Virus record (IMG/VR): IMGVR_UViG_2675903055_000001
Location: 1-64,000 of that record
DNA: 64,000 nt
Strand: one strand, 5' to 3'
Origin: a virus
Lineage: Duplodnaviria; Caudoviricetes
In this document: piece after piece, positions 11,580 to 38,406 of the stretch
How the letters are laid out: each line of letters begins with the position of its first letter
Numbering within the stretch: position 1 is the stretch's first letter
Notes under the pieces: model-generated
Told to the model about the DNA's origin: nothing
Seen by the model: the letters and a program-made list of their open reading frames with translations, nothing else
Databases searched by the model: none
Made by a program: the position numbers and the translations under genes

Positions 11580-13238
11580 TCAGGCGTGAACCCACGGCCA
11601 CGCGGCGGCCCGCCCCGACTCCAACAGCGGGATCATCCGGAACGCCTGATCCGTGAGCCCGCCAAACGTGTGCCGGCCCCTCCCACCCGACTGCGCATGC
11701 CCCACCCGGTAGCCAGCCAGATTCCACGTGTACATCGGCACCGACGACGGAACAGCCCGCATCACGTCGTCCGCGTCATGCCCCGCCTGCTCGTCCGTAA
11801 CGATCACAACCCTGTCGTGACCGGTGAACTCCTGACGGAGAGCCGCCGCTGTGTCGGTACCGCCCCCAAGGAACCAGCCACCGCCCTTCCACCGCTGCAC
11901 CGCCCGCAGCAGCGACTCACCCCTCTGCGCAGGGAACGCCTTCGTCCTCGCCCCCGGGCGGTCGTTCGTGTAGTAACGGGCCGACGAGAACGACACGACA
12001 TCCGCTCGCGCGCACCGCTGCCCCAACGCGATACCGAACAGGGCCGCAGCATCCCACCGCATCAGGCTGCCGTCCCGCGAGAACGGCTCGTTCATCGATG
12101 ACGAGGTGTCGACCAGGACCAGGGTGCGCCCTGCGAGCTGCGGGATGTTCGCGAGTGACGCGGACAGCGCCTTCTCCAGTGCGTAGCCCCAGCGCAGCGA
12201 CGGCGCCGCGTTGTACGCCGAGTAGAACCGCATCGGCAACTGACGTGAGCGTGCCACCTGCTCCGGGTCCGCGAGCTTCGCCGCGACCTGCTCCGCCGCC
12301 GCGTCGGACACGCCGGCCTCGTCGAAGTTGCGGAGGTTCCTGAGCAGCGCCATGTAGCCCATGGACGGGATGACCGCCTCCCACGCCTGCTTGTCCATCG
12401 GCCCCTGGAGCCAGCCGGCCAGCGCCTCCCACGTCATGCCAGCCTGCTGAAGGAGGTCGCCGTGGTTGGCGAGCACGTCCCTGCGCTGGTCAACTGGTGT
12501 GTACGTGAGCCGTTCACGCGCGAGCAGCATGGGGAGCCTGGCGGGGATCTCCTCGTCGCGCTTCATCCTGCGGTCGAGGGCGTGCTTGAACAGGTCGCCC
12601 TGCCACGCCTTGTTATCCGCCGGGCTGGGGTGGACGAGGTTGAGGACGTCGCCGAACCGGTACCCCTTGGATTCGGTGTCGTACTTGAGAAGGCTCCGCT
12701 CGTTGTACAGCCGCTGCACGGCGTCCGCGACCCCTCGCTTGATGGGCTTGGGCAGGCGTCGGCCGTAGCGGCTGGCCCAGTAGCCGAGCATTTCGCCGGG
12801 CTCGTCGGCGCGCTGGAGGACGGAGTCGATGACGCGCCGGTTCCAGCCTCCGCCGCTGGCCGATGCCGTCACCGTGTCGGGCGCCAGGTCACCGGCGGCC
12901 GTGGCGTCGAGGCGGGCCTTGACGAACTCGGCGGCGCCGACCAGCGCGGCGGTGCGCATGTTGGCGTCGCTGCGGAGCCAGCCCAGCAGTTCGACGCACC
13001 AGGCTGGGTCTTCGACGGCGAGCTGCCGTATGAGCTGGGTGTAGCGGTCGTCGCGCTGTCCGCCAGTCTCGTAGAACGTGTCCTGGCCGACCATGTTGGC
13101 GACGGCGAGGAGGAACAGCTCGGACTTGGTGTCGCGGAGGTAGCCGTGGCTGCCCTCGGCGGTGAGCGCACGCTCCCCGGTCGATGTCACGGGCGAGCTG
13201 GCAGACGGGCGGGCTGTGCGGGTGTTGAAGCGGGCCAC
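11580..13238 (-). CDS. rsr: Ro60/Rsr ortholog (TROVE + vWA domain RNA-binding protein)
   Basis: ELFLLAV, MRTAALV, SMGYMALLRNLRN TROVE motifs; vWA MIDAS LVLVDTSSSM, GGTD and IVTDEQ. Confidence 0.92.
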   Translation of the reverse strand: MARFNTRTARPSASSPVTSTGERALTAEGSHGYLRDTKSELFLLAVANMVGQDTFYETGGQRDDRYTQLIRQLAVEDPAWCVELLGWLRSDANMRTAALVGAAEFVKARLDATAAGDLAPDTVTASASGGGWNRRVIDSVLQRADEPGEMLGYWASRYGRRLPKPIKRGVADAVQRLYNERSLLKYDTESKGYRFGDVLNLVHPSPADNKAWQGDLFKHALDRRMKRDEEIPARLPMLLARERLTYTPVDQRRDVLANHGDLLQQAGMTWEALAGWLQGPMDKQAWEAVIPSMGYMALLRNLRNFDEAGVSDAAAEQVAAKLADPEQVARSRQLPMRFYSAYNAAPSLRWGYALEKALSASLANIPQLAGRTLVLVDTSSSMNEPFSRDGSLMRWDAAALFGIALGQRCARADVVSFSSARYYTNDRPGARTKAFPAQRGESLLRAVQRWKGGGWFLGGGTDTAAALRQEFTGHDRVVIVTDEQAGHDADDVMRAVPSSVPMYTWNLAGYRVGHAQSGGRGRHTFGGLTDQAFRMIPLLESGRAAAWPWVHA

Positions 13239-13280
13239 AAGAAGCCCCCTCTCTGAGAGGGGAAGCCCAGCAGTGGGGGT

Positions 13281-13414
13281 GCCCGAGGTCAGAGTCGGTG
13301 ACGGAAACGTAGCGTCCTAGGCCGCTGGACGACACCAGCCATACGACTGGCGGCGGGATTCGAACCCGCGTTGCTCTCTTGAGAGGAGAAGTATCCGTCT
13401 CCTGCGCACCGGGC
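13281..13414 (-). ncRNA. Y RNA-like (YrlA-type) unit with circularly permuted tRNA-Glu(CUC)-like domain
   Basis: 5' GCCCGGUGCGCAGG pairs with 3' CUGACCUCGGGC; inside, in order: UUCUC-CUCUCAA-GAGAG, T arm GCGGG-UUCGAAU-CCCGC, closed 7-bp acceptor hairpin, D arm GUCC-AGCGGCCUA-GGAC. Confidence 0.8.
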
Positions 13415-13430
13415 GCCCCCGGATGCTGTG

Positions 13431-13499
13431 CCTCCCGAGATCAAAGACGGCGGCGGCGCATTCACCCAAAGAAGTAGCCGCAGCCTGCGCACCGGGAGG
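13431..13499 (-). ncRNA. Minimal Y RNA-like unit without tRNA domain
   Basis: Same CCCGGUGCGCAGG..CGG.UACUUC 5' block and UUUGAUCUCGGG 3' block; CCUCCCG/CGGGAGG terminal stem. Confidence 0.7.
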
Positions 13500-13518
13500 T
13501 GCAAATCTGAAGTTGTGG

Positions 13519-13652
13519 GCCCAGAGATCGAAGTCGGTGTCGGAGACGTGGTGCTCTACCTGTTGAGCTACGGACGCCGTGGCGTCCGACGGGACTCGAA
13601 CCCGCAACCGCCCCATTAACAGTGGAAGTATCCGATGCCTGCGCACCTGGGC
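13519..13652 (-). ncRNA. Y RNA-like (YrlA-type) unit with circularly permuted tRNA-Asn(GUU)-like domain
   Basis: GCCCAG/CUGGGC terminal stem; UUCCA-CUGUUAA-UGGGG, T arm GCGGG-UUCGAGU-CCCGU, acceptor hairpin CGGACGC-CACG-GCGUCCG, D arm GCUC-AACAGGUA-GAGC. Confidence 0.8.
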
Positions 13653-13660
13653 TGGTATCC

Positions 13661-13666
13661 AATATA
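13661..13666 (-). promoter_or_regulatory. -10-like hexamer TATATT upstream of the Y RNA array
   Basis: Located about 8 nt upstream of the first unit's 5' stem; no -35 at canonical spacing. Confidence 0.4.
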
Positions 13667-13747: not shown

Positions 13748-13975
13748 TTACTCGGCGGAGTAGATCTCCGGCATCGGATGTTCCACACCCTCGCGCCACA
13801 TGTGTCGCCGGGCGTTGTACTCCGCGTCAGCCTTGAAGGGGTCGCCGCCACGAGAGTGAGCTCCGCACGGGCAGCGCCAGTGAAAGAGTCTCCACTGGGC
13901 AGGGTCAGTGGAGGTGGTACCCGCCTGGGGATCCCTCTTCAGCGCACGTCGGATCCACCCGGCCATACTGCCCAC
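13748..13975 (-). CDS. Hypothetical protein (CPC...H motif)
   Basis: Short ORF with plausible composition. Confidence 0.5.
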   Translation of the reverse strand: MGSMAGWIRRALKRDPQAGTTSTDPAQWRLFHWRCPCGAHSRGGDPFKADAEYNARRHMWREGVEHPMPEIYSAE

Positions 13976-16731: not shown

Positions 16732-17271
16732 TCAGGCCCGTTGCGCGAGCCAGCGCCGGATGATCTGGTTGTGGCGGGCGTCGGCGAGCGCGTTGTGCTC
16801 GCCGCTCTCCTGCTGGGGCAGCTCGTCCCAGGCGATCCCGAGGCGGCGGGCTTCCTGCTGGATGTCGTTGGTGAACATCGGCACACCGTCGGGCAGGGCC
16901 ATCATCGTGCCCCAGAGCTGGGCGAGGCACACGTGGTCGTAGGCGCCGTAGTTCGCCCACAGCTCCACGTCCTCCGTGGCCTGGATGAACGCGGCCACCT
17001 CGTCCGCGATCGTGGCCCGAGACTTGACCCTCGGGTCGCCGTAGTGGAACAGCCAGCGCTTCGACATGCTGTTCCGCAGATCTCCGTGCCCCTTGGGCAG
17101 GTGCGGGACGACGTTCTCCATGAGCCACTGATGCCTGCGGATCTTCCGCACAGGCATGTCCCTGTTGGCGGCGTAGTACTCGCGGCCGTCGTCGCACACC
17201 ATGCCGATGGAGATCAGCTCGATGGTGCGGCCGTCCTCCAGGAACTCCAGGTCGTAATCGATACCGGTCAC
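16732..17271 (-). CDS. DEDD 3'-5' exoribonuclease, RNase AS/Rv2179c-like
   Basis: YDLEFLEDGRTIELISIGMV...ELWANYGAYDHV...EHNALADARH. Confidence 0.85.
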   Translation of the reverse strand: MTGIDYDLEFLEDGRTIELISIGMVCDDGREYYAANRDMPVRKIRRHQWLMENVVPHLPKGHGDLRNSMSKRWLFHYGDPRVKSRATIADEVAAFIQATEDVELWANYGAYDHVCLAQLWGTMMALPDGVPMFTNDIQQEARRLGIAWDELPQQESGEHNALADARHNQIIRRWLAQRA

Positions 17272-18170
17272 GGCTGGCCCTTCGCGAGCGCGTCCGCCAG
17301 CCTGTCCAGGGCGGCCTGCGCCCCGGCGTCGGCAGCGGCCTGGACCTCGGCGGCCGTCAGTCCGCCCCCCTCCGCGAGCTTCGCGAGGACGGCGTCCCGG
17401 GCCGCGCCCTTCGCGGCCAGCTCGGCGACCGCGCTCTCCAGCCCCTTCACCCGGCCCCGGGTCTCCCGTGCGACTTCGCCGACGTGGATGAGCACCGACT
17501 TGGGCTTCCACGTCGGGTTCGTTTCGCTGCCCCAGGGCACGGTCATCTCGCCGTCCAGCTCCCAGGCGCCCTCGTACAGCTCCTTCTGAGTGGGCATGTC
17601 GTCCTCCGGTGTGCTGCCGCTGCCGCTGGTCGCCCACGCCTTCATGGCTGCGCGGTCGGCGAAGCGGGCGAGGTTGGTGTCGATCGGAGTGCTCGTGTAC
17701 TGGTGGATGAGCCACGGGGCTTGGATGCTCGGCGAGCCGGCGTGGCCGTTGTACTGGGCGATCCACAGCCCGTCCCCCGCGAACGAGGACTTGTCGCGGT
17801 TCTTCCAGTAGTCGACGTTGCAGTAGAGCAGGACCCGGTGTCCCGGGGCCTTGCCCTGCACGTACTTGATCCACGCGTCCTTGTCCGCGCTTGAGACCCC
17901 GGGGTCTTCCCAGTCGAGGACGAGGATGTCCCCGGCCCGCAGGTTGATCTTCGAGAGGAAGTAATCCGCCTGCGCCTTCATCGAGCCGGGCCGAACGAAG
18001 TGGTAGAAGCCGGTGACCAGTCCGGCGTCCCGGCCGGTCTGCCGCTGTGCCACCCACTTCGGGTTCGTGTACGACGTCCCCTCGGTGATCTTGATGATGG
18101 CGAAGTCCAGCCCCCGCGTGCCGTACCGCTCGGGCTGGTACGACGAGACGTCGATTCCTTTGATCATCAC
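17268..18170 (-). CDS. Endolysin, GH25 muramidase
   Basis: GIDVSSYQ, KITEG, GFYHF, LDWE, LWIAQY, IHQYT. Confidence 0.92.
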   Translation of the reverse strand: MMIKGIDVSSYQPERYGTRGLDFAIIKITEGTSYTNPKWVAQRQTGRDAGLVTGFYHFVRPGSMKAQADYFLSKINLRAGDILVLDWEDPGVSSADKDAWIKYVQGKAPGHRVLLYCNVDYWKNRDKSSFAGDGLWIAQYNGHAGSPSIQAPWLIHQYTSTPIDTNLARFADRAAMKAWATSGSGSTPEDDMPTQKELYEGAWELDGEMTVPWGSETNPTWKPKSVLIHVGEVARETRGRVKGLESAVAELAAKGAARDAVLAKLAEGGGLTAAEVQAAADAGAQAALDRLADALAKGQP

Positions 18171-19312: not shown

Positions 19313-19912
19313 CTAGATGGTCCAGTAGGTGATGCCGTCGAGCGCGATCCAGGAGGGCTGATTCGTCGTCTCGTAGATCCGCAGAATGCCCGCGTCGGTG
19401 ATCTCCGCCCGGACGACCGCGGGGTTGATGCTGGAGTCCCGGGCCACCCCGAAACCGACCTCCACACCGGCCGGCGGGCGGATCGCGGTAGGGATCGTGG
19501 CGATCGTGGAGCCGTTGGCGATGGTTCCGGAGGACGGGCCGACCCGGCCGCGGAACGTCACCTGCCTGCCCTGTACCAGGTAGGCGGGGCTGTAGCCGTG
19601 GCCTGGCCACTGGTAGCCGGATGCGAGCGTGAGGCTGGTCCAGCCCGCCCCGGTGCTCTCCAGCCGGCCGAACGCCATCCAGTTGCCGGAGCTGGAGCGG
19701 GTGACGACGATGACGTCCCCGGTCTGCGGGGCCGGGTAGCTGGGCAGGCGGCGGGCGCGGATCTCGTCGCAGTCGACGGTGCCGTCGGTGTTGACGGTGG
19801 TGACGGTGGCGAGTCGCCAGTCGGCGCCACGCACGACGGGCGCCGTCTGGCCGGCCTCGACCGCGGCGCCGCGGATGGCGGCGGCGAGCTGCTGGGGGCT
19901 GATCCCGGTCAC
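19313..19912 (-). CDS. Minor tail protein
   Basis: WRLATVTTV...; C-terminal WIALDGI similar to neighbour. Confidence 0.7.
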   Translation of the reverse strand: MTGISPQQLAAAIRGAAVEAGQTAPVVRGADWRLATVTTVNTDGTVDCDEIRARRLPSYPAPQTGDVIVVTRSSSGNWMAFGRLESTGAGWTSLTLASGYQWPGHGYSPAYLVQGRQVTFRGRVGPSSGTIANGSTIATIPTAIRPPAGVEVGFGVARDSSINPAVVRAEITDAGILRIYETTNQPSWIALDGITYWTI

Positions 19913-21006
19913 GAGTCCTCCCGTCCACCGATGCAGGCCAGCGTGAAGTCGCCGCCCACCAGGTCGAGGCTGAAGCTCTCGACTTGCAAGAGGTCGCGGT
20001 CGCCGGAGGCGTAGGTGACGCGGAGGACGTCGCCCGGCTCCAGGCACGGGTTCGGCACGCTGGACAGGTCTGCGGTGGCGTTCGGCTTCAGGCTGTCGCG
20101 CAACAGCTTGTTGGCTGCGGCCTGGGCGAGGGTCGTCGTCGTCAACGTCGCCGACGAGTAGAACGTCGGCACCCTGCCGAACGACCCGTACACGTAGGTG
20201 GGGCTGGTCGGGTCCTCGTCGGCGGCCGTCGCGGTCACCGGCGGCGTGTCCTCCTCGGTGTTCTCCCCACGGGCGACGACCCAGTTGTACATGCCGTCCC
20301 GGTTGTATCCGCGGCTGGCGGAGACGAGCGCGCCCCGCTCCCCCGCATCCACCTGCCACGAGATCGGCGCGACCAGCATGTCCGGCAGCTCCGCGATGAC
20401 GAACTGCCCATCGGCGTCGGCGTAGCACTCGGCGCCGATGGCGGTGGCGCACTCCTGCACGGCCGCCCACCGGTCGCCCTCCGCGTCCCACGTGCGCACC
20501 CCGATGACCTGATCGACCGCGTAGCTGGTGACGACGGCGCCGGGGATGGCGTCCTGGATGAGGCCGCGGATGGCGGTCACCGCGGTGACACCGCCGCGGG
20601 TCGAGTAGGCGGACACGAACTTGTCGTCGGCGACGACCGCCTCGAGACCCGAGGCTCTGATGTCGACGGGCCCGTAGTCGGGGTCGCCGTCCACGGCATC
20701 CACGCGCCCGTAGAAGACGGGCACCGTCTCGATGGTGCCGTTGCCGTAGCGGATGCCCCGCTCGATACGCAGCCTGGCCCCGTAGATGGCGAGCTGCTCG
20801 CTTGGGGTTCTGGGGATGAGGCTGGTGTCGGGCACGGTGACGGTGGCGGTGCGGCGCACAGCCTGCGACCTGTCCACCGTCACCGAGCCGGCGGTGTGCT
20901 CCAGCTCCACAACGGTGCCGTCCGCCTTGTGGAGCTGGACGACGGTGACGGGGGTGTGGGCCTCCACCAGCGTCGGCAGGAACCGGCCGGACGGAGGCGG
21001 ATACAC
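19909..21006 (-). CDS. Minor tail protein (DUF5047-like baseplate hub)
   Basis: GSVTVDRSQAVRRTA, YNWVVARGE, NPCLEPGD. Confidence 0.8.
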   Translation of the reverse strand: MYPPPSGRFLPTLVEAHTPVTVVQLHKADGTVVELEHTAGSVTVDRSQAVRRTATVTVPDTSLIPRTPSEQLAIYGARLRIERGIRYGNGTIETVPVFYGRVDAVDGDPDYGPVDIRASGLEAVVADDKFVSAYSTRGGVTAVTAIRGLIQDAIPGAVVTSYAVDQVIGVRTWDAEGDRWAAVQECATAIGAECYADADGQFVIAELPDMLVAPISWQVDAGERGALVSASRGYNRDGMYNWVVARGENTEEDTPPVTATAADEDPTSPTYVYGSFGRVPTFYSSATLTTTTLAQAAANKLLRDSLKPNATADLSSVPNPCLEPGDVLRVTYASGDRDLLQVESFSLDLVGGDFTLACIGGREDS

Positions 21007-21007
21007 G

Positions 21008-23248
21008 TCACGACCTCCTGTCGACAGTGAGGTCGAAAACGGTCTCGTACCGGTCGAGGACGTCGTAGCCACTGTCGTACTCGAGGACCACGTCGTACAC
21101 GGTCCAGGTGGCGCTACCGACCTGGCCGCCGGTGGGCATGTCCACCTCGGTCAGCGGCAGCGTCCACTCCCGCCACTCCTCGCGGGCATACGTCACGATC
21201 CGCGGGTACTGCACCTCGCCGACGACCACGTACACATCGGGTTCGCCCATGCCGGGCGCACACCGCCACAACAGAACGTTCCCGGTCGACAGGAGGAACC
21301 GCAGCGCGTCCCGCTCCTGGTCGGTGCGCGTCCAGCACACGAGGCTGCCCTCGCGGGACTGCCGCACATCCGACAGCACCACCGGCGTCGCCCGGCCACG
21401 CACCCGGTACACGGTCTGCTCGATCGCCTGCTGCCACTCCGGCGCCTGCCGCACCGCCACCCGCAGACCCACACCCGGCCGGGCAGGATCCGTCAACCAG
21501 GCGTAGTTCGGGTCGCCCGCAGTGAGCGTCACGGTGTCCGTGATCTTGTGGCTGTGGGCGCTGTCGTCGACCGCCACCGTCTCGATCACGTAGTACACCG
21601 GCACACCCAGCGGTGCCTCATAGTCCTCGATGACGAGGCTGTCGGCCGGGATCGAGTAGCCGTCGTACAGCCCCTCCGGGCCGCGCACCAGTGTGCGGCC
21701 ACCGTCCGGCGTGACCCGCCACACCGTCATCAGCTGGCCGACGGTCAGCTCCCGCAGGATGAGCTGCACCATCGCCTGCTCGTCGAACGCAGCCACTTCC
21801 TCCCGCGGCAGGGTCTCCCACAGGGCCGGCCGGTCGAGCTGCATGACCGAGCTCGACGACGTCGCGGTGAGCGTGACCTCCAACTGGCCCTGGGTGGCGC
21901 CGGCCGGGGCTATCGCGTCATCGACGAGGAGCCACCAGCCGGGCGTCGGCGCATCGAAAGTGATCGCCGTAGAGCTGGACAGGTAGGTGTCGGTGTCGGT
22001 GTACCAGCGGACGGCGATAGCGATCTGCCACCCACCCGCGCCCACCTTGAACCAGGTCTCGGCGCGCCAGTTGTCGCCCGCCGTCACACCGGGGTAGATG
22101 CCGGACCGCAGGACACTCCCCGCCGCCGTAGCCGACGACACGGTGAGCGCGTAGTAGTCGAAAACGTGCTCCGCACCCCAGGGGCTGCTGCGGGCGATGG
22201 TGGCCGGCCCGGAGGCCACGGTCCACGATCCGACGCCCTCCTCGAAATCCCAGTCCGCCCAGGGCAGCAGGTTGCCGGTGCGGATCGCCGGGTTCGGCAC
22301 CGCGCCCACCGCGCCGATGAACGCGCCCTCAGTCCGCACCACCTCACCGGCGCCGGCCCCGGTGATGCCGACCGCCAGACTGGCGGCGACCGCGCCCGCT
22401 GGGGCTATCCCGGAGGTGATCTGCCGGTACATGCCTGTACCCGGCGGCGCCAGCGTCGACCGGTGCGCCTCCAGTACGGTGTCCGTCTCGTCGTAGAACC
22501 GCAGCTCCACCCACGTCGCCGACCCGGTGGTGGCGGGCCCCAGGTAGGCGAACGCCACATACTCCGTCCCCACCGTCACGGGGGGTCGTTCCACGCACTC
22601 GCCGCTCGCATCACCCGCCGCTGTGGCGGTCACCGCGACCTGCTCGCCGCCCGCGTTGTAGAACGTCGACGACCAGCTCGACACGGGTGCGATCCGGGAA
22701 ACGGTGGCGTTCGTCTCCGCCGCCCACGCTGATGCGTCGACCTCCCCGCCCGCCTCGGCGTTGAAGCTGAGGAGGTTGCCGGGGTAGCGGATTGGCAGGC
22801 CGAGGTAGACGTTCTCCCAGTAGTGCACCACCCCCGCCCCGGCAACGGTCGATGACAGCAGCACCTGCGCTCGCACGGCGCCCGACGGGGCGACCCCGGC
22901 CACCGACACGCGATGCCAGCTCGCCGAAGCAGCGGCCGTCGTCAGCGACCACGTCACCGAGAGTTCGGCGCCCGCCGCGTCCAGCCAGCGGATACCAATC
23001 CGCTCCGGCTGAGCCGACGATGACGCGTCCGCGAACGTCCAGTACAGGGCGCCCGCATCCACCGGCACCGACGAGAACGTGCGCGCCTGCATCTCCCCGG
23101 ACGCCGCCGAGGTGAGCTTCAGGCAGCCGTCACCATTCCGCCCACCCGACGCCAGCGACAGCGAGCAGTTCGCCTTCGCCGCCCAGCCGGACGTGTTCGG
23201 ATCCACCATCTCCGTCGTCGCCGACAGAAGGTTCCCCGGGATCGCCAT
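21008..23248 (-). CDS. Distal tail protein with repeated carbohydrate-binding-like domains
   Basis: Three GNLL-initiated repeats; follows tape measure. Confidence 0.78.
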   Translation of the reverse strand: MAIPGNLLSATTEMVDPNTSGWAAKANCSLSLASGGRNGDGCLKLTSAASGEMQARTFSSVPVDAGALYWTFADASSSAQPERIGIRWLDAAGAELSVTWSLTTAAASASWHRVSVAGVAPSGAVRAQVLLSSTVAGAGVVHYWENVYLGLPIRYPGNLLSFNAEAGGEVDASAWAAETNATVSRIAPVSSWSSTFYNAGGEQVAVTATAAGDASGECVERPPVTVGTEYVAFAYLGPATTGSATWVELRFYDETDTVLEAHRSTLAPPGTGMYRQITSGIAPAGAVAASLAVGITGAGAGEVVRTEGAFIGAVGAVPNPAIRTGNLLPWADWDFEEGVGSWTVASGPATIARSSPWGAEHVFDYYALTVSSATAAGSVLRSGIYPGVTAGDNWRAETWFKVGAGGWQIAIAVRWYTDTDTYLSSSTAITFDAPTPGWWLLVDDAIAPAGATQGQLEVTLTATSSSSVMQLDRPALWETLPREEVAAFDEQAMVQLILRELTVGQLMTVWRVTPDGGRTLVRGPEGLYDGYSIPADSLVIEDYEAPLGVPVYYVIETVAVDDSAHSHKITDTVTLTAGDPNYAWLTDPARPGVGLRVAVRQAPEWQQAIEQTVYRVRGRATPVVLSDVRQSREGSLVCWTRTDQERDALRFLLSTGNVLLWRCAPGMGEPDVYVVVGEVQYPRIVTYAREEWREWTLPLTEVDMPTGGQVGSATWTVYDVVLEYDSGYDVLDRYETVFDLTVDRRS

Positions 23249-23249
23249 G

Positions 23250-26200
23250 TCACCTCCCCGCCCGCGCACCCAGCGCCGTCAAAACCTCGCCATTCGACCG
23301 CCGCACCTCAGCCCGCGCGATATCCGTGATCTCCCGATCACCGACGTACACGGTCACCGAGAGGTCGCCGAGTGCGGGCTCGTCGGTGCCACGTGCTGCA
23401 GCCCCCGTCAGTACCTCCCACTGCCTGCCAGTCAGTACCGGCTCGGGCCGGCCTGTTCCGTTCGCGACGAGGTTGAGGCCGGGCTGGAGCAGACCACCGT
23501 CGTCGTACCAGTGCGGCGACCTTGACTGCCACCTCGCCCAGGCCCTCGCCGGGGTGCCGTAGTCGTAGCGCTTCTTGATGTAGCCCATGCCCCACTTGAT
23601 CTGTGTGGCCGGGTTGGTGCGCCAGTCCGCGCCAGCCGACCGCATTTTGGAAGCCGGGAGCGCCTGCGGAATCCCGTAGGCGCCTGAGCTGGGGTTTTTC
23701 GCGTTCCAGCGCCACCCGGACTCACGGGTCCACAACTTCTTGAGCGGCGGCCACTGCTTTTGCGACCAGCCGAACTCACCCAACATCTGGCGAGCCGTGG
23801 CCTGCGCGGCCTTCGCCGACTTGCCGCCGCCACCACCGATGGCAGGCTTGAACCCGTACCAGTTCTTCCCGAACATCGGGCTGTTGTAGCCGCGGGCCCG
23901 GGAGCCGACGACGACGCCGTCGCCACCGCGCGACTCCACGTTCGTCCCGGCCAAGGTGCCCGCCGTGTGCCCCTTGCCCTTGTTCGTGATGCCGATCTGG
24001 TACGGGCTGCGCTTGTGGTACTCCCACCCAGCCGGAGCTCTCTTCCCGGAGAAGGAGAACGTGGACCACAGGCGCCCCTTGGGCTTCTTGCCCTGGATGA
24101 CCTTCTGGATGCTGCTGAGGAACCCCGAGCAGTCGAAGCTCGGGTTGCCCGCGCCGCCCCACTGGTAGGGCTTCCCTGCCTGCGAGCGCGCCCACTTCAG
24201 CGCACGGGCGACGCCCTGCCCGCCCAGCTCCGAGGTCTCCGACCCCTTGATGGCGGACAGCGCCTCGGTGAGAAGTCCAGAGGGGACGGCCTTGGCTAGC
24301 GAGCCCCAGCCCTTGGTGCCGCCGGGCACCTTGTTGATCAGGGATCGGATGGGCTTGGCCGCCGCCGACGCGGCCTTGTACACGCCGCCCAGGGCCGCGT
24401 CCTTCAGCTTGCCCAGCCCCTTGGAGACGGACCCGGCGACCGCACGAGCACCCCCGGCGAGCCGCTCGCCCGCCCCCTTGAACCAGTCGACGGCACCGCC
24501 GAACGCGTATCCGGGCACACCGCCTGCTGCGGGAGCCGGACCGCTCTGGCCCGCTCCCCCGCGGGCCGCAGCCCGGAGCCCCTCGACGGCACCGTGGCCG
24601 CCTGCGCCCTGCACTTCCTTCGCGGTCCACACGTGCTCGCCGCGGGACAGCCGTGCGGGGATGCTGTCGGACGTCGCCGTACCCGGCCCGTACACGGGCC
24701 CGCCGGTGGCGAACTTGAAGAAGGGCAGCTTCTTGATCGGCAGGACCTTCGCGGCGGTGTTCCAGAGGCCGCGCACGCCCTTGTTGTAGACGAGATCGAT
24801 CACCCATTTGATCGGCTTCCGCGTCAGCGACTTGATCTTCGCCCAGGACTTTCCCAGCGCATCCTTCGCCTTCCGGAAGCTGTCCGCCACCCTCGACACC
24901 GCGGACTTGATCGCGTTGAAGGCGGGCCGGATGCCCTTCTCCCAGGCGACGCGGATCGCCGTCCGGATGCCCGACCACACGGGCTTGATGACGTTCTTCC
25001 ACAGCCACTTGAAGACGCTCGCCATCGTGCGGATCGCCGACTTCACGAAGCCGAAGTAGCGCTTGACGACGTTCTGCCACCACCAGGAGATGACCTTCCC
25101 GATGCCGCGGAACACCGGCGACAAGACGTTCCGCCACAGCCACGTCGCGACCTTCGCCACCAGCCGGAACGCGCCCCGCACCAGCCCGAAGTAGCGGCGC
25201 ACGATGTTCTGCCACCACCAGGTGACCACCACGGCGATCCCGTGGAACACCGGGCTGAGGACGTTGTGCCACAGCCACACGGCGATCTTCGCGACCCAGC
25301 GGATCGCGACAACCAAAGCGTTGAACACCGGCTTCAGCACCACGTTCCACGCCCACAAGGCCGCGGTCTTGATGCCCTCCCACGCCGCCTGCACCGCGGT
25401 CCGGAACCAGCCCCAGCGCTTGTAGGCGTAGATGACGATCGCGACGAGCGCGATGATCCCCAGAATGATCAACGTGATCGGGTTGGCTTGCATGACCGCG
25501 TTGAAGATGACCATGCCGATCGTCCACAGCCGTGTCACGATCAGCGCCAGGTACATGCCCTGGATCAGCCACGGCAGGGTCGTCGCGATCGACGCAATCC
25601 CCCGCGCCAGCGCACCCAGCACGTCCAGGACCGGGCCCTGCAGCGGGATCAGCGCCCGCGACACGTCGAGAAACGCCCGCCCCAGGTCACCCAGAGTGGA
25701 AGCGAGCTTGGGGCCCATGCGGGCCGCGTAGTCCAGGAACCGCTCGAACTCCGGGCTCCCCTTCAGACCGGTGCCCCAGTTCGCGAACCTGCCGGTAGCC
25801 GACTCCATCCGCTTGGCGATCGAATCGATGTGCGGCAGGAACGCTTGGATGATCCCGGCCATGCCCTTGAAGATCCGGCCGAAGCTGACACCGAGGCTGA
25901 CGACCGCAGGCTCGACACTGCCCTGCACGTCCCTCTTGAAGCTCTTCCACCACGGACTCTTGAAGCCGGCCGACACCCGGTCCTGCAACGTCTTGATGCC
26001 GCGGGCCGCCGCCAATACCAGCGGCGTCAACCCCGGCAAGGAGTTCTTCATGCCGTTCAGGGCCCGCGTGAACAGCGGCATCACAGCCGGCTGCAGGCTC
26101 CGCGACCAGGCCGAGAAAGCCTTCCGCAGCGACACGAACGCGTTGAACGTGCCCCGCGTCGCCGGCGTCATCTTCGCCAGCGCAGCCCGGTACTTCGCCT

Positions 26201-31657: not shown

Positions 31658-32692
31658 TCACACGAGACCTTCGACAGCACCGCACCAGGCCGTCAGATCG
31701 GCTGCAGGACCCAACTCGCGCGAGCGAGCCCGAGCCCTCTTGGACGCCAACCGGTACTCGGCCGGATCACCGAGCAGCTTGCCCAACACCGCTTCGTAGC
31801 CGTCCACGTCGAAGCGGTCCACGAACACGCCCGCCTCGCCGAGCGACTCGCACAGGCCCGGAGTCGGATGTGCCACCACAGGGATGCCAGACGCCAACGC
31901 CTCAACGCCAGCCCGTCCCCACGACTCGTAGACCGACGGCATCAGCAGCACCTTCGTGCGGGCATACACCCGCTCCCGCATCTCGGAGCCGTCCACGTGC
32001 TCGACGACCTCGACATTCGGCAGGTCCGGAAGGATCTGCTCGCCGTAGGCACCGCGCACGGCCAGGAACTGCTGATCCGGCATGCGCCGGGCCAGCGCCG
32101 CGAGTGTCGTCCCGCCCTTTTCCGCATTGCAGTTGATCAGCGTGATGGCCTTGCCGGGCTTCGTCGCATACTCGTCGGCGAACACCGGAGGCCGCACGAT
32201 CAGCGACCGCTCCGGCCGGACAGCCTTCGGATACTCGGCGAAGAACAACTCCGCCTCCGCCTCCATCCAGCGCGAGTTGTACACCGCCAGCGCCGTCTGC
32301 CCCGCCGCCGCATCCCGGAACGTGGGCCGGTGCGTGTTGTGACACACGACCACCATCGGCTTGCCGTAGCCGCGGGCCAGCGACGCCGTCGACGGAACGC
32401 ACTCCAGATGCGACAGCAGCACATCCGCCCGCCGCACAGCAGAAGGGAAATCCAGGCGCGCCTCCAGCGGCACGACGCGCACGCCCCGGTACTCGTAGAC
32501 CTCGTGTGCCTTCCCGTAACGGGACAACCACACCTCCACCTGATGCCCGCGCTCGACCAGCGGCCGCAGCATCGAGATCAGCATGTGCTCGGCGCCCGCG
32601 TTGTGCTCCGGTGGCGCGGCGTGCACGCGGGCGACGATGGACAGCGGCTTGGCTGCCCCGTCCGGCGCGGAAGCCGGGACAGCCCTGGCCAT
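31658..32692 (-). CDS. Glycosyltransferase family 4 (GT-B fold)
   Basis: NAGAEHML...PSVYESWGRAGVEALASGIPVV. Confidence 0.9.
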   Translation of the reverse strand: MARAVPASAPDGAAKPLSIVARVHAAPPEHNAGAEHMLISMLRPLVERGHQVEVWLSRYGKAHEVYEYRGVRVVPLEARLDFPSAVRRADVLLSHLECVPSTASLARGYGKPMVVVCHNTHRPTFRDAAAGQTALAVYNSRWMEAEAELFFAEYPKAVRPERSLIVRPPVFADEYATKPGKAITLINCNAEKGGTTLAALARRMPDQQFLAVRGAYGEQILPDLPNVEVVEHVDGSEMRERVYARTKVLLMPSVYESWGRAGVEALASGIPVVAHPTPGLCESLGEAGVFVDRFDVDGYEAVLGKLLGDPAEYRLASKRARARSRELGPAADLTAWCGAVEGLV

Positions 32693-33648
32693 CAGGAACC
32701 GCTCGGGGTGCCGGTGAACTTCACGAACGCCTGCGCGTCACCCATGACGAACCCGTAGTACGCCTCCGCCAGGAGCAGCACCAGGTTCTCCTGGAAGGCG
32801 GAGTGGACGCCGCCTTCCTCGTCCACGTAGGTGGCCTCGTTCGACACGCGCACGGTGATGTCCATGCCCACGCCGTAGGCGCACTGCGACCAGTCGCCGC
32901 CCAGCGCCCGCAGGCCGGAATCGACACTGGCGGACTGACGCCGCTGCTTCCCCGACACGCTCCGCGAGTAGGCCAGCGGCTCACCGATCAGCGTCCCCGC
33001 CGCCGCCATGTCCGTACCCGGCGTCTGCGTGTCCACCAGGATCGGCCGGCCGGTGGTGTCCGTGGCCAGCAGCAGCTTCGGCTTCAGCCGGTGATCCGCG
33101 ACGGTACCGGTGTAGTCCCAGTCCGCGTCGATGACCTCCTCCATGCCCGTCACCAGGTCGGCCCAGATGCCGCCGTTGCCCTGCGTCGCAGTGCCCAGCG
33201 TGACGCTGTTCGTCGTGGAGGCCAAGTACTCGGTGAACGGACCCGCAGCGCCCTTCATGGTCTTGCCGTGGATCGCCGCGTGGTCGAACGCGCGGGCGAA
33301 CGCGGTAGGCAGATCCTTCTGCAGTTGGCTGTAGAGACCCGCGGCGTTGGTGTTCGCGACCTCCATCGCCACCGGGATCAGCACCGCCAGCTTCTTCGCC
33401 TGCATCTGCTTCACGTCCACGCCACCGGTCGACAGGGGCTTCTTCGCCGCCTGCCCGACCCAGTCCGCGGTCGGCACGTCCATCGGGATCGGCACGGACG
33501 TGGTGGCGTCCAGCGCCAGCGGCGCCGGACGCGCCAGCGCCATGATCGCCGACTGCTCCACCGACTTCTCGAAGATCGGAGCGGTGATCGTGCGCGGCAG
33601 AAGCGCACCATCGATGCTGGACAGGGTGATAGGGGCCGTAGCCGCCAT
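32692..33648 (-). CDS. Major capsid protein (HK97 fold)
   Basis: KKLAVLIPV..E, AFARAFD, GDWSQ, FQENLV. Confidence 0.92.
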   Translation of the reverse strand: MAATAPITLSSIDGALLPRTITAPIFEKSVEQSAIMALARPAPLALDATTSVPIPMDVPTADWVGQAAKKPLSTGGVDVKQMQAKKLAVLIPVAMEVANTNAAGLYSQLQKDLPTAFARAFDHAAIHGKTMKGAAGPFTEYLASTTNSVTLGTATQGNGGIWADLVTGMEEVIDADWDYTGTVADHRLKPKLLLATDTTGRPILVDTQTPGTDMAAAGTLIGEPLAYSRSVSGKQRRQSASVDSGLRALGGDWSQCAYGVGMDITVRVSNEATYVDEEGGVHSAFQENLVLLLAEAYYGFVMGDAQAFVKFTGTPSGS

Positions 33649-36666: not shown

Positions 36667-38406
36667 TCACCTGAGTACGACGACCCGGCCCTTACCGGCC
36701 GACCGCTTCTTGGCCCACGCGGGCGAGTTCATCAACATGCGGCGCAGCATCCGCGCCCCGATCGCACACACCGCGAGATCGATCTTCCGGGCGGACTCGC
36801 GGTGCTCCTTACCGATCGTGTAGCCCCACCTGTTCGTCCGCCGCCGCGCATTCGCGATGTGCTGCCGCAGCACCCGGTGCCCGTCGTGAGGCACCTGCCG
36901 CTCCAGCGCATCCCGGTAGAACCGGTCAACCGCCTCCGTGAACAGCGGCTGATGCTTCGGATCACGCATGTCCCACAGCACCGCGTGCTGCCGCGTACCC
37001 GAGACCACAGCCTTCAGCTTCAGGCGCTTCCCGTACCGCTGTGCCCACGAGTCGATGTAACCGTCCCAGTACCGCTCGCCGTCCGCGTCATCGTGGCCGG
37101 CTCCCGGGTCGGCGAAGAACGCGAGCGGCCGGTAGCGGGCGAAGGTCTGCTCGACCACGCCGTCGACCTCATCCCGCGGCACCCGCCACGGCCGATCATC
37201 CGGCCAGCCCGGCGGCTTCTGCCACACGCCCAGAGCAGTCACGAAACCGTCCGACACCCGACACGCCACCAACCCGGTGGCGTCATCGCTCTTCGACCCG
37301 TCGAAAAACAAGACGATCTCGTCTCGCTCGGCCAGCTCCACGCCGTCGACCTGGCAGGCATCCCACTCGTAGCGGGCCATGTACGCGTCGTCCGCGGCGA
37401 CGATCTGGTTGAACCAGAACCGGCGACTACGCGACGGCGGATTCCGCACATCCAGGATCGACGCCTTCAGCCGGTCGATGTCCAGCCACACGGAATCCCC
37501 ACGCACAGCCTTCAGCGTCGGGACGATCCACTCCTCCGTCAGCTTCGCCTCAGCCGGCGCCTCCAACGAGTCGTAGAACAGACCCGTATCGACCGACCGC
37601 CCGGACTCCGCCGACTCGAACGCCTCCCGAGTGCGCTCCGCCACCGAGTCCTCACCCGGCTCGTAAGCGTTCGTGAGAGCCAGGGTTCGCGACATTCCGT
37701 CCGCGCTCTTGGTCGAGTTGCGCTCGATGACCGCAGCCATCTCGTGCCCCTGATTCGAGTCCACCCAGTGGTGCGTCTCATTCAGCAGGACGAACGTCGG
37801 CCGACCGCCCTCCATCGCTCGCGGCGAAGACGTGACCGCCTCAACTCGAGCGCGTCCCTTGTCCGCATAGATGATCTCCTTGCCGAGATCGATGCGGTAC
37901 TCCTCGATCGCCCGCTTGCTGAACATCCCCGGGAAGAGCGTCATCGTCGAGCGCGTCTGGTCCTGCGACACCGCCGCGATCTGCACCCAGGCCGCCGGAT
38001 GCTGCATTCCGATCGGCTGCCCCGGCGGGATCCCCCACTCGTCTCCCTCATCCGCCACCTGGCCCGACGGCCGGCACGGGCCGACAAACTCGAACCCCGA
38101 CCACGAAGCCCCCAAGGGATCCTTGCCATGACCCTTGAGGCGTTGGATCACGCCGTCCCGGTACTGGAACCGCAACGTCACCGGGTCCAGCGCGTACCAC
38201 CACAGCGTCAGCCGGGCCTGCTCCGCCGTATACCGCCACGGCGCCCCGACATGGTGCTGGAGGTACGTAGCCGTCCACGCCAGCGCATGCCAGCCCAGCG
38301 TGAACTCCGGCAGCACGAACCGGCCGTCCCGGCCACGCCGCCAAGTCGGCCCGAGCGTGAACGGGGTGACGACCTCGGGGACGGCTTCAACTTCCGCGTT
38401 CATCAC
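36667..38406 (-). CDS. Terminase large subunit
   Basis: QRLKGHGKDP Walker A, LLNETHH, FFDGSKSDDATGL, KIDLAV. Confidence 0.93.
   Translation of the reverse strand: MMNAEVEAVPEVVTPFTLGPTWRRGRDGRFVLPEFTLGWHALAWTATYLQHHVGAPWRYTAEQARLTLWWYALDPVTLRFQYRDGVIQRLKGHGKDPLGASWSGFEFVGPCRPSGQVADEGDEWGIPPGQPIGMQHPAAWVQIAAVSQDQTRSTMTLFPGMFSKRAIEEYRIDLGKEIIYADKGRARVEAVTSSPRAMEGGRPTFVLLNETHHWVDSNQGHEMAAVIERNSTKSADGMSRTLALTNAYEPGEDSVAERTREAFESAESGRSVDTGLFYDSLEAPAEAKLTEEWIVPTLKAVRGDSVWLDIDRLKASILDVRNPPSRSRRFWFNQIVAADDAYMARYEWDACQVDGVELAERDEIVLFFDGSKSDDATGLVACRVSDGFVTALGVWQKPPGWPDDRPWRVPRDEVDGVVEQTFARYRPLAFFADPGAGHDDADGERYWDGYIDSWAQRYGKRLKLKAVVSGTRQHAVLWDMRDPKHQPLFTEAVDRFYRDALERQVPHDGHRVLRQHIANARRRTNRWGYTIGKEHRESARKIDLAVCAIGARMLRRMLMNSPAWAKKRSAGKGRVVVLR

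What the first reader, a model, noticed from the sequence alone, without database searches (positions are those of the whole stretch)
13281..13652. Two Y RNAs are complete circularly permuted tRNAs that keep Asn and Glu anticodon loops
Seen: in both long units the order is anticodon arm, short variable region, T arm, acceptor stem closed by a loop, D arm. The break lies at the D/anticodon junction, where the Ro-binding stem is attached. The loops are CUGUUAA (GUU, Asn) and CUCUCAA (CUC, Glu), and each D arm resembles its cognate tRNA class (UAGCUCAA..GGUAGAGC; GUCCAGCGGCCUAGGAC). Established: described YrlA RNAs mimic the D, T and acceptor arms with a closed acceptor end. Inference: keeping intact, cognate-matched anticodon hairpins on non-chargeable RNAs suggests decoys for host anticodon nucleases or tRNA-modifying enzymes, displayed on Ro60, and two independent tRNA-to-Y RNA conversions.
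Basis: partly seen in the sequence, partly recalled or inferred. Interest (0 to 1): 0.88.

Follow-up and report, generated by a model that had tools for sequence, protein, structure and literature searches.

The report
Y RNAs built from whole tRNAs
Two small RNAs beside a prophage's Ro60 gene are complete tRNA sequences in rearranged order, anticodon arm included; this suggests that this class of Ro60 partner RNAs arose from back-to-back tRNA genes, but what the retained anticodon arm does is untested.

Summary
Observation confirmed. Three Y RNAs lie on the minus strand upstream of a prophage rsr (Ro60) gene. The two long ones (13652-13519 and 13414-13281) read: Ro-binding stem, 5-bp/7-nt hairpin (loops CUGUUAA, CUCUCAA), 5- or 4-nt variable loop, T arm, 7-bp acceptor stem closed by a loop, D arm. 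Re-joined in silico, ARAGORN calls them tRNA-Asn(gtt) and tRNA-Glu(ctc).

They are the actinobacterial form of YrlA. The hairpin is what Chen et al. 2014 called the 'V' stem-loop. Its geometry, the NGGUY linker after it and model-to-tRNA alignments show it is homologous to the anticodon arm.

In 83 of 113 related units the spacing is exactly tRNA-like, and U33 and A37 are about 90% conserved. The triplet is not fixed: it drifts like other free tRNA positions. It is still cognate with the body more often than chance (13/85 against 5 expected; related sequences are not independent).

A model built from these Y RNAs scores 66-72 bits on chromosomal tandem tRNA-Asn genes. This supports the published 'dimeric tRNA' origin.

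The decoy function is untested, and a competitive-inhibitor idea is already in print (Hughes 2020). Verdict: new variant of a known kind. This scan has noted other tRNA-shaped Y RNAs on other DNA, with different wiring.

The parts
13519..13652 (-). Y RNA unit 1 (YrlA-type, Asn-like permuted tRNA module)
   Evidence: Terminal stem 13652-13647 pairs with 13524-13519. Fold. Model R1 scores 96.2 bits. Rfam YrlA gives a local hit of 40.3 bits.
13611..13627 (-). Unit 1 anticodon-arm homolog: 5-bp stem (two U-G pairs) and loop CUGUUAA; triplet GUU at 13620-13618
   Evidence: It aligns onto the anticodon arm of true tRNA-Asn.
13606..13610 (-). Unit 1 variable loop (positions 44-48); its last U pairs with A15 of the D loop (Levitt pair)
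   Evidence: G46 in 48 of 48. The 15:48 pair is G:C in 50, A:U in 8, with 2 exceptions.
13589..13605 (-). Unit 1 T arm
13571..13588 (-). Unit 1 acceptor stem: 7 bp closed by the loop CACG
   Evidence: All 7 pairs covary among homologs.
13552..13570 (-). Unit 1 positions 8-9, D arm and position 26
13628..13647 (-). Unit 1 5' strand of the Ro-binding and closing stem, with the conserved GUGCGCAGG block and the UAC just before the hairpin. It pairs with 13547-13519.
   Evidence: The block is conserved in all three units and in homologs. The closing helix covaries (helix 1).
13431..13499 (-). Y RNA unit 2: short, Ro-binding stem only (YrlB-like)
   Evidence: Fold z = -2.67. It has the same conserved end blocks.
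13281..13414 (-). Y RNA unit 3 (Glu-like permuted tRNA module)
   Evidence: Fold. R1 scores 60.6 bits. With the hairpin removed, the body best matches the genome's three tRNA-Glu genes.
13374..13390 (-). Unit 3 anticodon-arm homolog: 5-bp stem and loop CUCUCAA; triplet CUC at 13383-13381
   Evidence: It is part of the MFE fold.
13313..13373 (-). Unit 3 4-nt variable loop, T arm, 7-bp acceptor stem closed by a 6-nt loop, positions 8-9 (UC), Glu-type D arm, position 26
   Evidence: A 4-nt variable loop and this D arm are tRNA-Glu traits also seen in the genome's own tRNA-Glu.
13661..13666 (-). TATATT hexamer, a possible -10 element about 7-9 nt before unit 1
   Evidence: Read directly from the sequence. 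The consensus scan found no full sigma-70 site, so this is weak.
13245..13263 (-). 8-bp hairpin between unit 3 and the rsr start; it overlaps the likely ribosome-binding site
11580..13238 (-). rsr (Ro60-like protein with TROVE and vWA domains), 552 aa
   Evidence: Pfam TROVE 9.1e-16. PHROG 850 1e-49. 47-50% identical to the 'Ro-like RNA binding protein' of Streptomyces phages. PDB TROVE protein 9kop, 1.5e-25.

Best explanation
The two long units are actinobacterial YrlA-type Y RNAs. Their effector module is a whole tRNA sequence in rearranged order: anticodon arm, class-I variable loop, T arm, acceptor stem closed by a short loop, D arm. The Ro60-binding stem joins positions 26 and 27. The hairpin that the literature labels the 'V' stem-loop is homologous to the tRNA anticodon arm. 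The modules descend from head-to-tail tRNA gene pairs. They consist of the 3' two-thirds of the upstream tRNA, the spacer, and the 5' third of the downstream tRNA. Unit 1 belongs to a tRNA-Asn-derived line and unit 3 to a tRNA-Glu-like line.

How it most likely works (inferred): the three units are transcribed ahead of rsr and cut apart. Rsr binds the conserved terminal stem. The module folds into a tRNA L-shape that tRNA-handling proteins accept. Precedents in relatives are RNase P, the CCA-adding enzyme, TruB and DusA. The particle therefore either tethers Ro60 to such a protein or competes with tRNAs for it. The anticodon arm is kept mainly as an inherited, generic tRNA feature: a U-turn loop frame and a stacked helix. 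The triplet is only weakly constrained, so specificity for one isoacceptor is unlikely to be the rule.
For: Shown here:
- Re-joined sequences are called tRNA-Asn(gtt) and tRNA-Glu(ctc).
- They align without gaps to the genome's own tRNA-Asn (53/72 identical) and tRNA-Glu (49/72).
- The body of unit 3 alone ranks the three tRNA-Glu genes first.
- 83 of 113 related units have exactly 17+4 or 17+5 nt before the T stem. Among them U33 occurs in 75/83, A37 in 71/83 and A38 in 73/83. Compensatory changes occur at pairs 30:40 and 31:39.
- The linker is N-G-G46-U-Y48, with G46 in 48/48, and the 15:48 pair covaries. That is the class-I variable loop, not the short 3' side of a long variable arm.
- Model R1, built from these Y RNAs, matches true phage tRNAs locally with its hairpin on their anticodon arms. 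Model positions 11-49 fall inside annotated tRNA-Asn and tRNA-Thr genes.
- R1 matches chromosomal tandem tRNA-Asn(gtt) pairs of the same genus full length at 66-72 bits. That is more than unit 3 itself (60.6 bits).
- A Y RNA beside rsr in another family (L141) still has the tRNA-Asn T stem and a UUCG closing loop like the Asn-Asn spacer.
- The Rfam YrlA model also lights up tandem tRNA pairs.
- Parsimony on the Rsr tree: positions 34/35/36 change 9/10/7 times in 40 taxa. The freest tRNA positions change 10-17 times, and positions 32, 33, 37 and 38 fewer than 3 times.

From papers: M. smegmatis YrlA is Rsr-bound, cut by RNase P and CCA-tailed. S. Typhimurium YrlA is modified by TruB and DusA and has a tRNA L-shape (PMC4201824; 10.1101/312249). 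The dimeric-tRNA origin was proposed in 10.1101/312249.
Against: There is no expression, processing or Rsr-binding datum for this locus. Both units score below the Rfam YrlA gathering cut-off (40.3 and 19.1 bits against 69). The hairpin is degraded, replaced by other hairpins or absent in roughly a quarter to a half of related units, so it is dispensable in some lineages. Its stem sequence is far more conserved than structure alone requires (UUCCA/UGGGG or UUCUC/GAGAG), which points to a constraint I cannot name. Sequence cannot tell which helix stacks under the D stem in 3D, the hairpin or the closing stem. The MFE of unit 1 prefers a different local pairing by 2 kcal/mol. The cognate excess hints at some selection on the triplet that a purely 'generic' role does not explain.
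Confidence: 0.72

Rival explanations
1. The retained anticodon hairpins are isoacceptor-specific baits. Displayed on Ro60, they decoy or titrate anticodon nucleases or anticodon-loop modifying enzymes that target tRNA-Asn and tRNA-Glu, which protects the prophage or its host.
For: The locus is in a prophage (integrase, endolysin, tail, capsid, terminase). Ro genes of lytic actinophages sit inside tRNA arrays, one next to an RNA ligase. The loop frame needed for recognition is conserved. Triplets are cognate with the body more often than chance (13/85 against 5.1). The commonest triplets are CUU, GUU and GCU. From my own recall, not tested, Lys and Asn tRNAs are known nuclease targets. A competitive-inhibitor role for YrlA was proposed by Hughes 2020 (PMC7790460).
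Against: The triplet changes among close relatives with otherwise near-identical RNAs. It changes at the pace of other free tRNA positions. Glu-like bodies carry six different triplets. The hairpin is lost in many units. No anticodon nuclease or defence gene was recognised beside the locus. There is no experiment.
Confidence: 0.15
2. The published cloverleaf reading. The closing stem takes the place of the anticodon stem, and the hairpin sticks out as a variable-arm analogue. Its anticodon-like look is a leftover with no structural role as an anticodon arm.
For: Chen 2014 drew YrlA this way (PMC4201824). The S. Typhimurium crystal structure has the 5'/3' stem in the anticodon-stem position (10.1101/312249). 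The closing stem runs straight into the hairpin with no linker. The hairpin is the least conserved arm family-wide and is often lost.
Against: S. Typhimurium YrlA has no such hairpin, so its structure does not decide the matter. In this family 4-6 unpaired bases separate the D stem from the closing stem, where a tRNA has one. A full 44-48 loop follows the hairpin. The 7-nt loop with U33 and A37 is not a variable-arm trait. Homology to the anticodon arm is direct.
Confidence: 0.1
3. Cryptic permuted pre-tRNAs. The Ro-binding stem is excised, positions 26 and 27 are ligated, and RNase P plus CCA addition open the acceptor end. The result is working tRNA-Asn and tRNA-Glu for the phage.
For: The order of parts equals that of permuted tRNA genes of algae (PMC3978253). 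Wang 2018 raised processing as a possibility. Relatives with a 7-bp acceptor stem are RNase P substrates (PMC4201824). rsr is often linked to RNA ligases (PMC7790460).
Against: No bacterial splicing endonuclease is known. In relatives the bodies and triplets are mismatched, which would give useless or miscoding tRNAs. The base after the acceptor 3' strand of unit 1 is C, whereas the genome's tRNA-Asn gene has G there. Pair 1:72 of unit 3 is G-U.
Confidence: 0.03

Closest known systems
YrlA (Y RNA-like A; Rfam RF02553; Chen et al. 2014, PMC4201824; structure in Wang et al. 2018, 10.1101/312249)
   Same: It lies just upstream of rsr on the same strand. It has a terminal Ro-binding stem with a CGAA-type block (CGCA here), conserved T and D arms, an acceptor-like stem closed by a loop, the Levitt-pair covariation, and the conserved YUAY just before the 'V' region.
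   Different: Published descriptions say YrlA lacks the anticodon loop and treat the 5'/3' stem as the anticodon stem. Here a full anticodon-arm homolog plus a canonical 44-48 loop is present, so the Ro stem is an insertion at 26/27. Both units fall below the Rfam cut-off because the model has no place for the hairpin.
Mycobacterium smegmatis YrlA and YrlB (Chen et al. 2014)
   Same: Actinobacterial. Several Y RNAs lie in a row 5' of rsr. The acceptor stem has 7 bp. A 'V' stem-loop is drawn in the published alignment.
   Different: [quoted passage not shown] I could not obtain its sequence to check whether its hairpin has the same anticodon-loop frame.
Closely spaced tandem tRNA genes, e.g. 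tRNA-Asn(gtt) pairs of Streptomyces chromosomes
   Same: From the anticodon arm of gene 1 to the D arm of gene 2, the order, spacing and much of the sequence match. Identity to unit 1 is 57 of 82, and R1 scores 66-72 bits.
   Different: Tandem genes are cut into two tRNAs. In the Y RNA the outer parts are replaced by the two strands of the Ro-binding stem, and the two acceptor strands pair with each other.
Circularly permuted tRNA genes of Cyanidioschyzon merolae and relatives (review PMC3978253)
   Same: The 3' half is encoded before the 5' half. The acceptor end is initially closed by a loop. The two transcript ends pair.
   Different: Those carry a bulge-helix-bulge signal, are circularised and become decoding tRNAs. 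No such signal or enzyme is known in bacteria. Their break points are mostly in the anticodon loop rather than at 26/27 (the last point is from my own recall).
Un-permuted tRNA-shaped Y RNAs beside phage Ro60 genes noted earlier by this scan (e1-5798639, e1-5529253)
   Same: They are Ro60-linked RNAs built on a tRNA body in phages.
   Different: In those notes the Y module replaces the anticodon arm or loop. Here the anticodon arm is kept. I did not test those notes.

Membership tests
YrlA / bacterial Y RNA | Encoded within a few kb of rsr (Ro60) on the same strand | tested here: met
   The units end 43 nt upstream of the rsr start (11580-13238, minus strand). TROVE and PHROG 850 hits.
YrlA / bacterial Y RNA | 5' and 3' ends pair into a stem carrying the GNCGAAN0-1G / CGAA motif thought to bind Rsr | tested here: inconclusive
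   The ends pair. The block is GUGCGCAGG, i.e. CGCA rather than CGAA, in all three units. Relatives have either CGCA or CGAA. Binding was not tested.
YrlA / bacterial Y RNA | Conserved T-arm and D-arm sequences with an acceptor-like stem-loop between them | tested here: met
   Rfam local alignments; parser and covariation.
YrlA / bacterial Y RNA | Score at or above the Rfam gathering cut-off (69 bits) | tested here: not met
   40.3 and 19.1 bits, local matches to model positions 24-84 and 30-81 only. The hairpin interrupts the model.
YrlA / bacterial Y RNA | Bound by Rsr in vivo | not testable with these tools
   No RNA run holds the stretch.
tRNA (RF00005) | Contiguous cloverleaf with free, paired 5' and 3' acceptor ends | tested here: not met
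   ARAGORN and Rfam call no tRNA at this site in the native order. A cloverleaf is called only after in-silico re-joining.
tRNA (RF00005) | All four arms, a 7-nt anticodon loop with U33 and a purine at 37, a variable loop, and tertiary-pair positions | tested here: met
tRNA (RF00005) | CCA end and aminoacylation | not testable with these tools
   The only precedent is in M. smegmatis YrlA, which gains CCA after RNase P cleavage (PMC4201824).
Circularly permuted tRNA genes (algal/archaeal type) | 3' half upstream of 5' half, with the acceptor closed by an intervening loop | tested here: met
Circularly permuted tRNA genes (algal/archaeal type) | Bulge-helix-bulge motif at the leader-trailer helix, and maturation through a circular intermediate to a decoding tRNA | not tested
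   I did not search for the motif. Mismatched bodies and triplets in relatives argue against a decoding role.

The most novel reading that the evidence does not exclude
The triplet in the retained anticodon loop is a specificity determinant. Ro60 would display an isoacceptor-like anticodon stem-loop as bait for tRNA-targeting nucleases in phage-host or phage-phage conflict. The bait would either soak up the nuclease or, once cut, signal tRNA damage to the Ro60/RNA-repair machinery. Turnover of the triplet among close relatives would then reflect changing opponents.
Probability: 0.13. Interest if true: 0.85.

Novelty: new variant of a known kind. Interest (0 to 1): 0.6.

Why it matters
Bacterial Y RNAs are known tRNA mimics, but the accepted picture is a tRNA without an anticodon arm, and their origin is an open guess. 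The evidence here makes three points:
- A large actinobacterial and actinophage branch keeps a full anticodon-arm homolog.
- The Ro60-binding stem is an insertion at the D/anticodon hinge.
- The modules are still recognisably the junctions of tandem tRNA genes, clearest for tRNA-Asn.

This gives the 'dimeric tRNA' hypothesis concrete comparative support, including an intermediate-looking form. It also makes the proposed decoy or competitor role easier to test, because the RNA now offers the part that anticodon nucleases cut.

There is a practical consequence too. tRNA finders mis-call these RNAs, and several phage records carry them as tRNA genes.

Tried and rejected
- **RNA evidence.** No RNA holder is listed for the stretch, so no reads were laid.
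- **Rfam at gathering cut-offs.** It finds nothing here.
- **Phylum-wide scan with Rfam YrlA at E 0.001.** It is not specific. Its full-length hits are tandem tRNA genes, and it rings in E. coli and B. subtilis controls. I used it only as evidence of likeness to tRNA pairs, not for distribution.
- **RNAalifold on a mixed-class MAFFT alignment.** It did not predict the hairpin. The 4-nt and 5-nt variable-loop classes were put out of register. I replaced it with register-true counts.
- **The triplet as hypervariable (diversifying selection).** Rejected. Its parsimony changes are no higher than those of other free positions.
- **ARAGORN calling about 30 Y units as tRNAs in native order.** I considered this as a sign that the 5' Ro strand is a former acceptor plus D arm. 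I set it aside because the drawn acceptor and D stems are poor.
- **PADLOC, NCBIfam and Pfam on neighbouring ORFs.** Nothing was found.
- **Papers not held.** The supplement of Chen 2014 and the reviews Sim & Wolin 2018 and Sim et al. 2020 are not held. I cannot exclude that one of them already calls the hairpin an anticodon arm.
- **M. smegmatis YrlA.** I could not retrieve its sequence by name.
Full report
**What is there.** The feature lies on the minus strand. Immediately upstream of a 552-aa Ro60-like gene (rsr, 11580-13238) lie three Y RNA units in a row. The gene has a TROVE domain (9.1e-16), a weak vWA domain, PHROG 850 (1e-49), 47-50% identity to the 'Ro-like RNA binding protein' of Streptomyces phages, and a PDB TROVE hit at 1.5e-25. 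Unit 1 is 13652-13519, a short unit 2 is 13499-13431, and unit 3 is 13414-13281. All three begin with the same GUGCGCAGG block, and their ends pair.

The window is a prophage. It has an integrase at 1-1398, an endolysin at 17268-18170, tail genes at 19909-23269, a capsid gene at 32692-33648 and a terminase at 36667-38406. This is the only rsr/Y RNA locus of this design in the 7.2-Mb genome.

**Checking the observation.** Both long units read, 5' to 3':
- Ro-binding and closing stem
- a 5-bp stem with a 7-nt loop (CUGUUAA in unit 1, CUCUCAA in unit 3)
- a 5-nt linker (unit 1) or 4-nt linker (unit 3)
- the T arm
- a 7-bp stem closed by 4 or 6 nt
- two bases, the D arm and one base
- the return strand of the closing stem

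I joined the 5' acceptor strand plus D arm to the hairpin plus T arm plus 3' acceptor strand. ARAGORN then draws normal cloverleaves and names them tRNA-Asn(gtt) and tRNA-Glu(ctc) (the ACCA tail was added by me). Against the 83 tRNA genes ARAGORN finds in the same genome, the best full-length partners are tRNA-Asn and tRNA-Glu. The alignments are gapless for unit 3 and have small gaps only at the acceptor ends for unit 1. They show 53/72 and 49/72 identities.

With the hairpin removed, the body of unit 3 still ranks the three tRNA-Glu genes first. It shares their UC at positions 8-9, the Glu-type D arm and the 4-nt variable loop. The body of unit 1 is generic: Trp ranks first and Asn ties for second. 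Rfam's YrlA model matches only the T-acceptor-D core, at 40.3 and 19.1 bits against a cut-off of 69.

**More than chance.** I fetched 76 rsr loci of Streptomycetaceae and neighbours, 27 viral contigs and 5 actinophage records. A parser that asks only for the conserved UAC, a T arm and a closed 7-bp stem finds 113 distinct units. Of these, 83 have exactly 21 or 22 nt between the UAC and the T stem, which equals a 17-nt arm plus a 4- or 5-nt variable loop.

In those 83, without any hairpin having been required:
- 87% of cells pair in the anticodon-stem register, against 50-65% in shifted registers.
- Pairs 30:40 and 31:39 show compensatory changes (C-G, U-A, G-C; A-U, C-G, U-A).
- U33 is present in 75, A37 in 71, A38 in 73 and C32 in 66.

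On a 26-sequence alignment the five-helix structure is 95.3% paired. None of 500 shuffles reaches it, and slid controls give 37-51%. A covariance model built from that alignment (R1) finds 151 matches in the loci, a few of them true tRNAs. Of these, 112 have at least 4 of 5 hairpin pairs, 102 of those have a 7-nt loop, and 100 of the 102 have U33.

**Variable arm or anticodon arm?** Chen et al. [quoted passage not shown] They called it V and equated it with the variable arm, with the conserved YUAY beginning the V region. Wang et al. [quoted passage not shown] Four things make it an anticodon-arm homolog:
- It has 5 bp and a 7-nt loop with U33 and A37.
- It is followed by N-G-G-U-Y. G46 is invariant (48/48), and the last base covaries with D-loop position 15 (G:C 50, A:U 8, 2 exceptions). 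That is the complete class-I variable loop.
- R1 matches genuine phage tRNAs locally, with model positions 11-49 lying on their anticodon arm, variable loop and T arm.
- R1 aligns full length to tandem tRNA-Asn genes with the hairpin on the anticodon arm of the first gene.

Sequence cannot say which helix stacks under the D stem in three dimensions. Four to six unpaired bases separate the D stem from the closing stem, and none separates the closing stem from the hairpin.

**Does the anticodon stay?** The frame stays and the triplet moves. Among 62 strict units I saw 18 triplets: CUU 14, GUU 12, GCU 10, GUC 4 and others. A34 never occurs, G is rare at position 35, and U dominates at position 36. 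RNAs that are otherwise nearly identical differ in the triplet, for example CUU, UUU and GUU in one group.

On a tree of the adjacent Rsr proteins (40 taxa), positions 34, 35 and 36 need 9, 10 and 7 changes. The freest positions need 10-17 (position 44 needs 17). Positions 32, 33, 37 and 38 need fewer than 3. So the triplet behaves like other unconstrained tRNA positions, not like a hypervariable site.

The triplet is not random with respect to the body either:
- The isotype best matching the body without the hairpin equals the isotype of the triplet in 13 of 85 units. Shuffling gives 5.1 expected (p about 0.0004; related sequences are not independent, so this overstates).
- Units with the Asn-type D loop and U48 carry GUU in 7 of 10. 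The others (GCU, GGU) are one change away.
- A Pro-like class in three lineages has the loop UUUGGGA, with the G37 typical of tRNA-Pro, and a Pro-like D loop. It is 50-56 of 73-74 identical to tRNA-Pro(tgg).
- Glu-like bodies carry CUC only in this window. Elsewhere they carry UUU, UCC (twice), GCU, UCG, CAC and a 6-nt loop with UUC.

The hairpin is degraded, replaced (for example by UUCG-type hairpins) or missing in many other units.

**Origin.** Sub-threshold hits of the Rfam YrlA model across Actinomycetota are closely spaced tRNA gene pairs such as Pro-Gly, Asn-Asn and Asp-Phe. My own model does the same. In five genomes of the window's genus, tandem tRNA-Asn(gtt) genes 4-5 nt apart score 66-72 bits, above unit 3 at 60.6 bits.

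In native order, unit 1 is 57/82 identical to the stretch from position 27 of the first tRNA-Asn to position 26 of the second. A Y RNA next to rsr in another family (L141; rsr adjacency) keeps the tRNA-Asn T stem and GUU. Its closing loop is UUCG, like the Asn-Asn spacer. In lytic Streptomyces phages the Ro gene lies inside a tRNA array, right after tRNA-Asn(gtt).

This is what the 'dimeric tRNA' idea of Wang et al. 2018 predicts. [quoted passage not shown] The Glu-like, Pro-like and Gln-type D-arm classes mean one of two things: repeated capture, or exchange of modules with tRNA genes. I cannot tell which.

**How it most likely works.** Three things are shown here: the architecture, its conservation and its kinship with tRNA genes. 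The rest is inferred from relatives. That covers co-transcription with rsr and processing, Rsr binding to the terminal stem, a tRNA L-shape accepted by TruB and DusA, and RNase P cleavage with CCA addition where the acceptor stem has 7 bp, as it does here (PMC4201824; 10.1101/312249).

I therefore read the module as a full-length tRNA mimic. It lets the Ro60 particle engage tRNA-handling proteins, either as a tether or as a competitor. The anticodon arm is kept as a generic tRNA feature.

The isoacceptor-specific decoy reading is possible but weakly supported: the triplets drift, the arm is often lost, and no nuclease was recognised nearby. The competitor idea as such is in print (PMC7790460). 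A cryptic pre-tRNA is unlikely because bodies and triplets are mismatched in relatives.

**Known or new.** YrlA as a tRNA mimic that resembles a permuted tRNA, its V stem-loop and the dimeric-tRNA hypothesis are all published. I did not find the following in the papers I could search:
- the reading of the V stem-loop as an anticodon arm followed by a canonical variable loop
- the placing of the Ro stem at 26/27
- the isotype-like classes
- the direct match to tandem tRNA-Asn genes

Two reviews were not available. I rate it a new variant of a known kind.

No claim here rests on the genomes flagged as unpublished. The genomes used are G024, G039, G054, G255, G276, G288, G223, G196, G284, G277 and G261.

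**Caveats.** There is no transcript, binding or structure datum for this locus. All homolog statistics involve related sequences. My parser and model were built from the pattern they then count, although avoids requiring the hairpin.

Noticed in passing
L077:1769-1843, L079:1704-1775, L080:835-905: Three tRNA genes annotated just upstream of Ro genes in phage records contain the Y RNA UAC-UUC anchor, hairpin and T arm. They are GiJojo tRNA-Arg(cct), VanLee tRNA-Arg(tct) and JustBecause tRNA-Cys. They look like Y RNA parts mis-called as tRNAs. ARAGORN makes the same kind of call, with poor acceptor and D stems, at about 30 Y units in my loci.
   Followed up: partly
L109-L138 and L147-L168 (e.g. 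L112, L114, L115, L147): Both the Rfam YrlA model and my model hit closely spaced tandem tRNA genes in many genomes, including E. coli and B. subtilis controls. YrlA scans below the gathering score therefore report tRNA pairs.
   Followed up: yes
window 13245-13263 (-): An 8-bp hairpin followed by CUUCUUGUG sits between unit 3 and the rsr GTG start. It covers the likely ribosome-binding site. It could be a processing site or a translational gate.
   Followed up: no
window 13748-13975 (-): A 75-aa ORF with a CPCG motif ends about 95 nt upstream of unit 1. It has no family hit.
   Followed up: partly
G000 contig C18, about 532308 (+): Another stretch in the genome has a T-arm-like hairpin followed by a closed 7-bp stem and a D-like hairpin. 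It has no UAC anchor and no rsr. It may be chance or may lie within a coding region.
   Followed up: no
L146 about 1560 (-), L155 about 1529 (+): Y-like units with the UAC-UUC anchor, a hairpin, a T arm, a closed acceptor stem and a D arm sit inside chromosomal tRNA arrays (Thr, Gly, Phe) of other actinobacterial families. No rsr match was found within the 3-kb locus.
   Followed up: partly
L080:1229-1981 and L081:261-995: In Streptomyces phage JustBecause an RNA ligase gene directly precedes the Ro gene. In Gordonia phage Trax a nucleotidyltransferase lies upstream, and in VanLee a HicA-like toxin does. These neighbours are RNA-repair or RNA-toxin genes.
   Followed up: no
L017, L087, L090 (about 30 nt before their T arms): Some units keep the loop letters AGUUAA but have lost the 5' strand of the hairpin. 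This is an anticodon arm caught in decay.
   Followed up: partly
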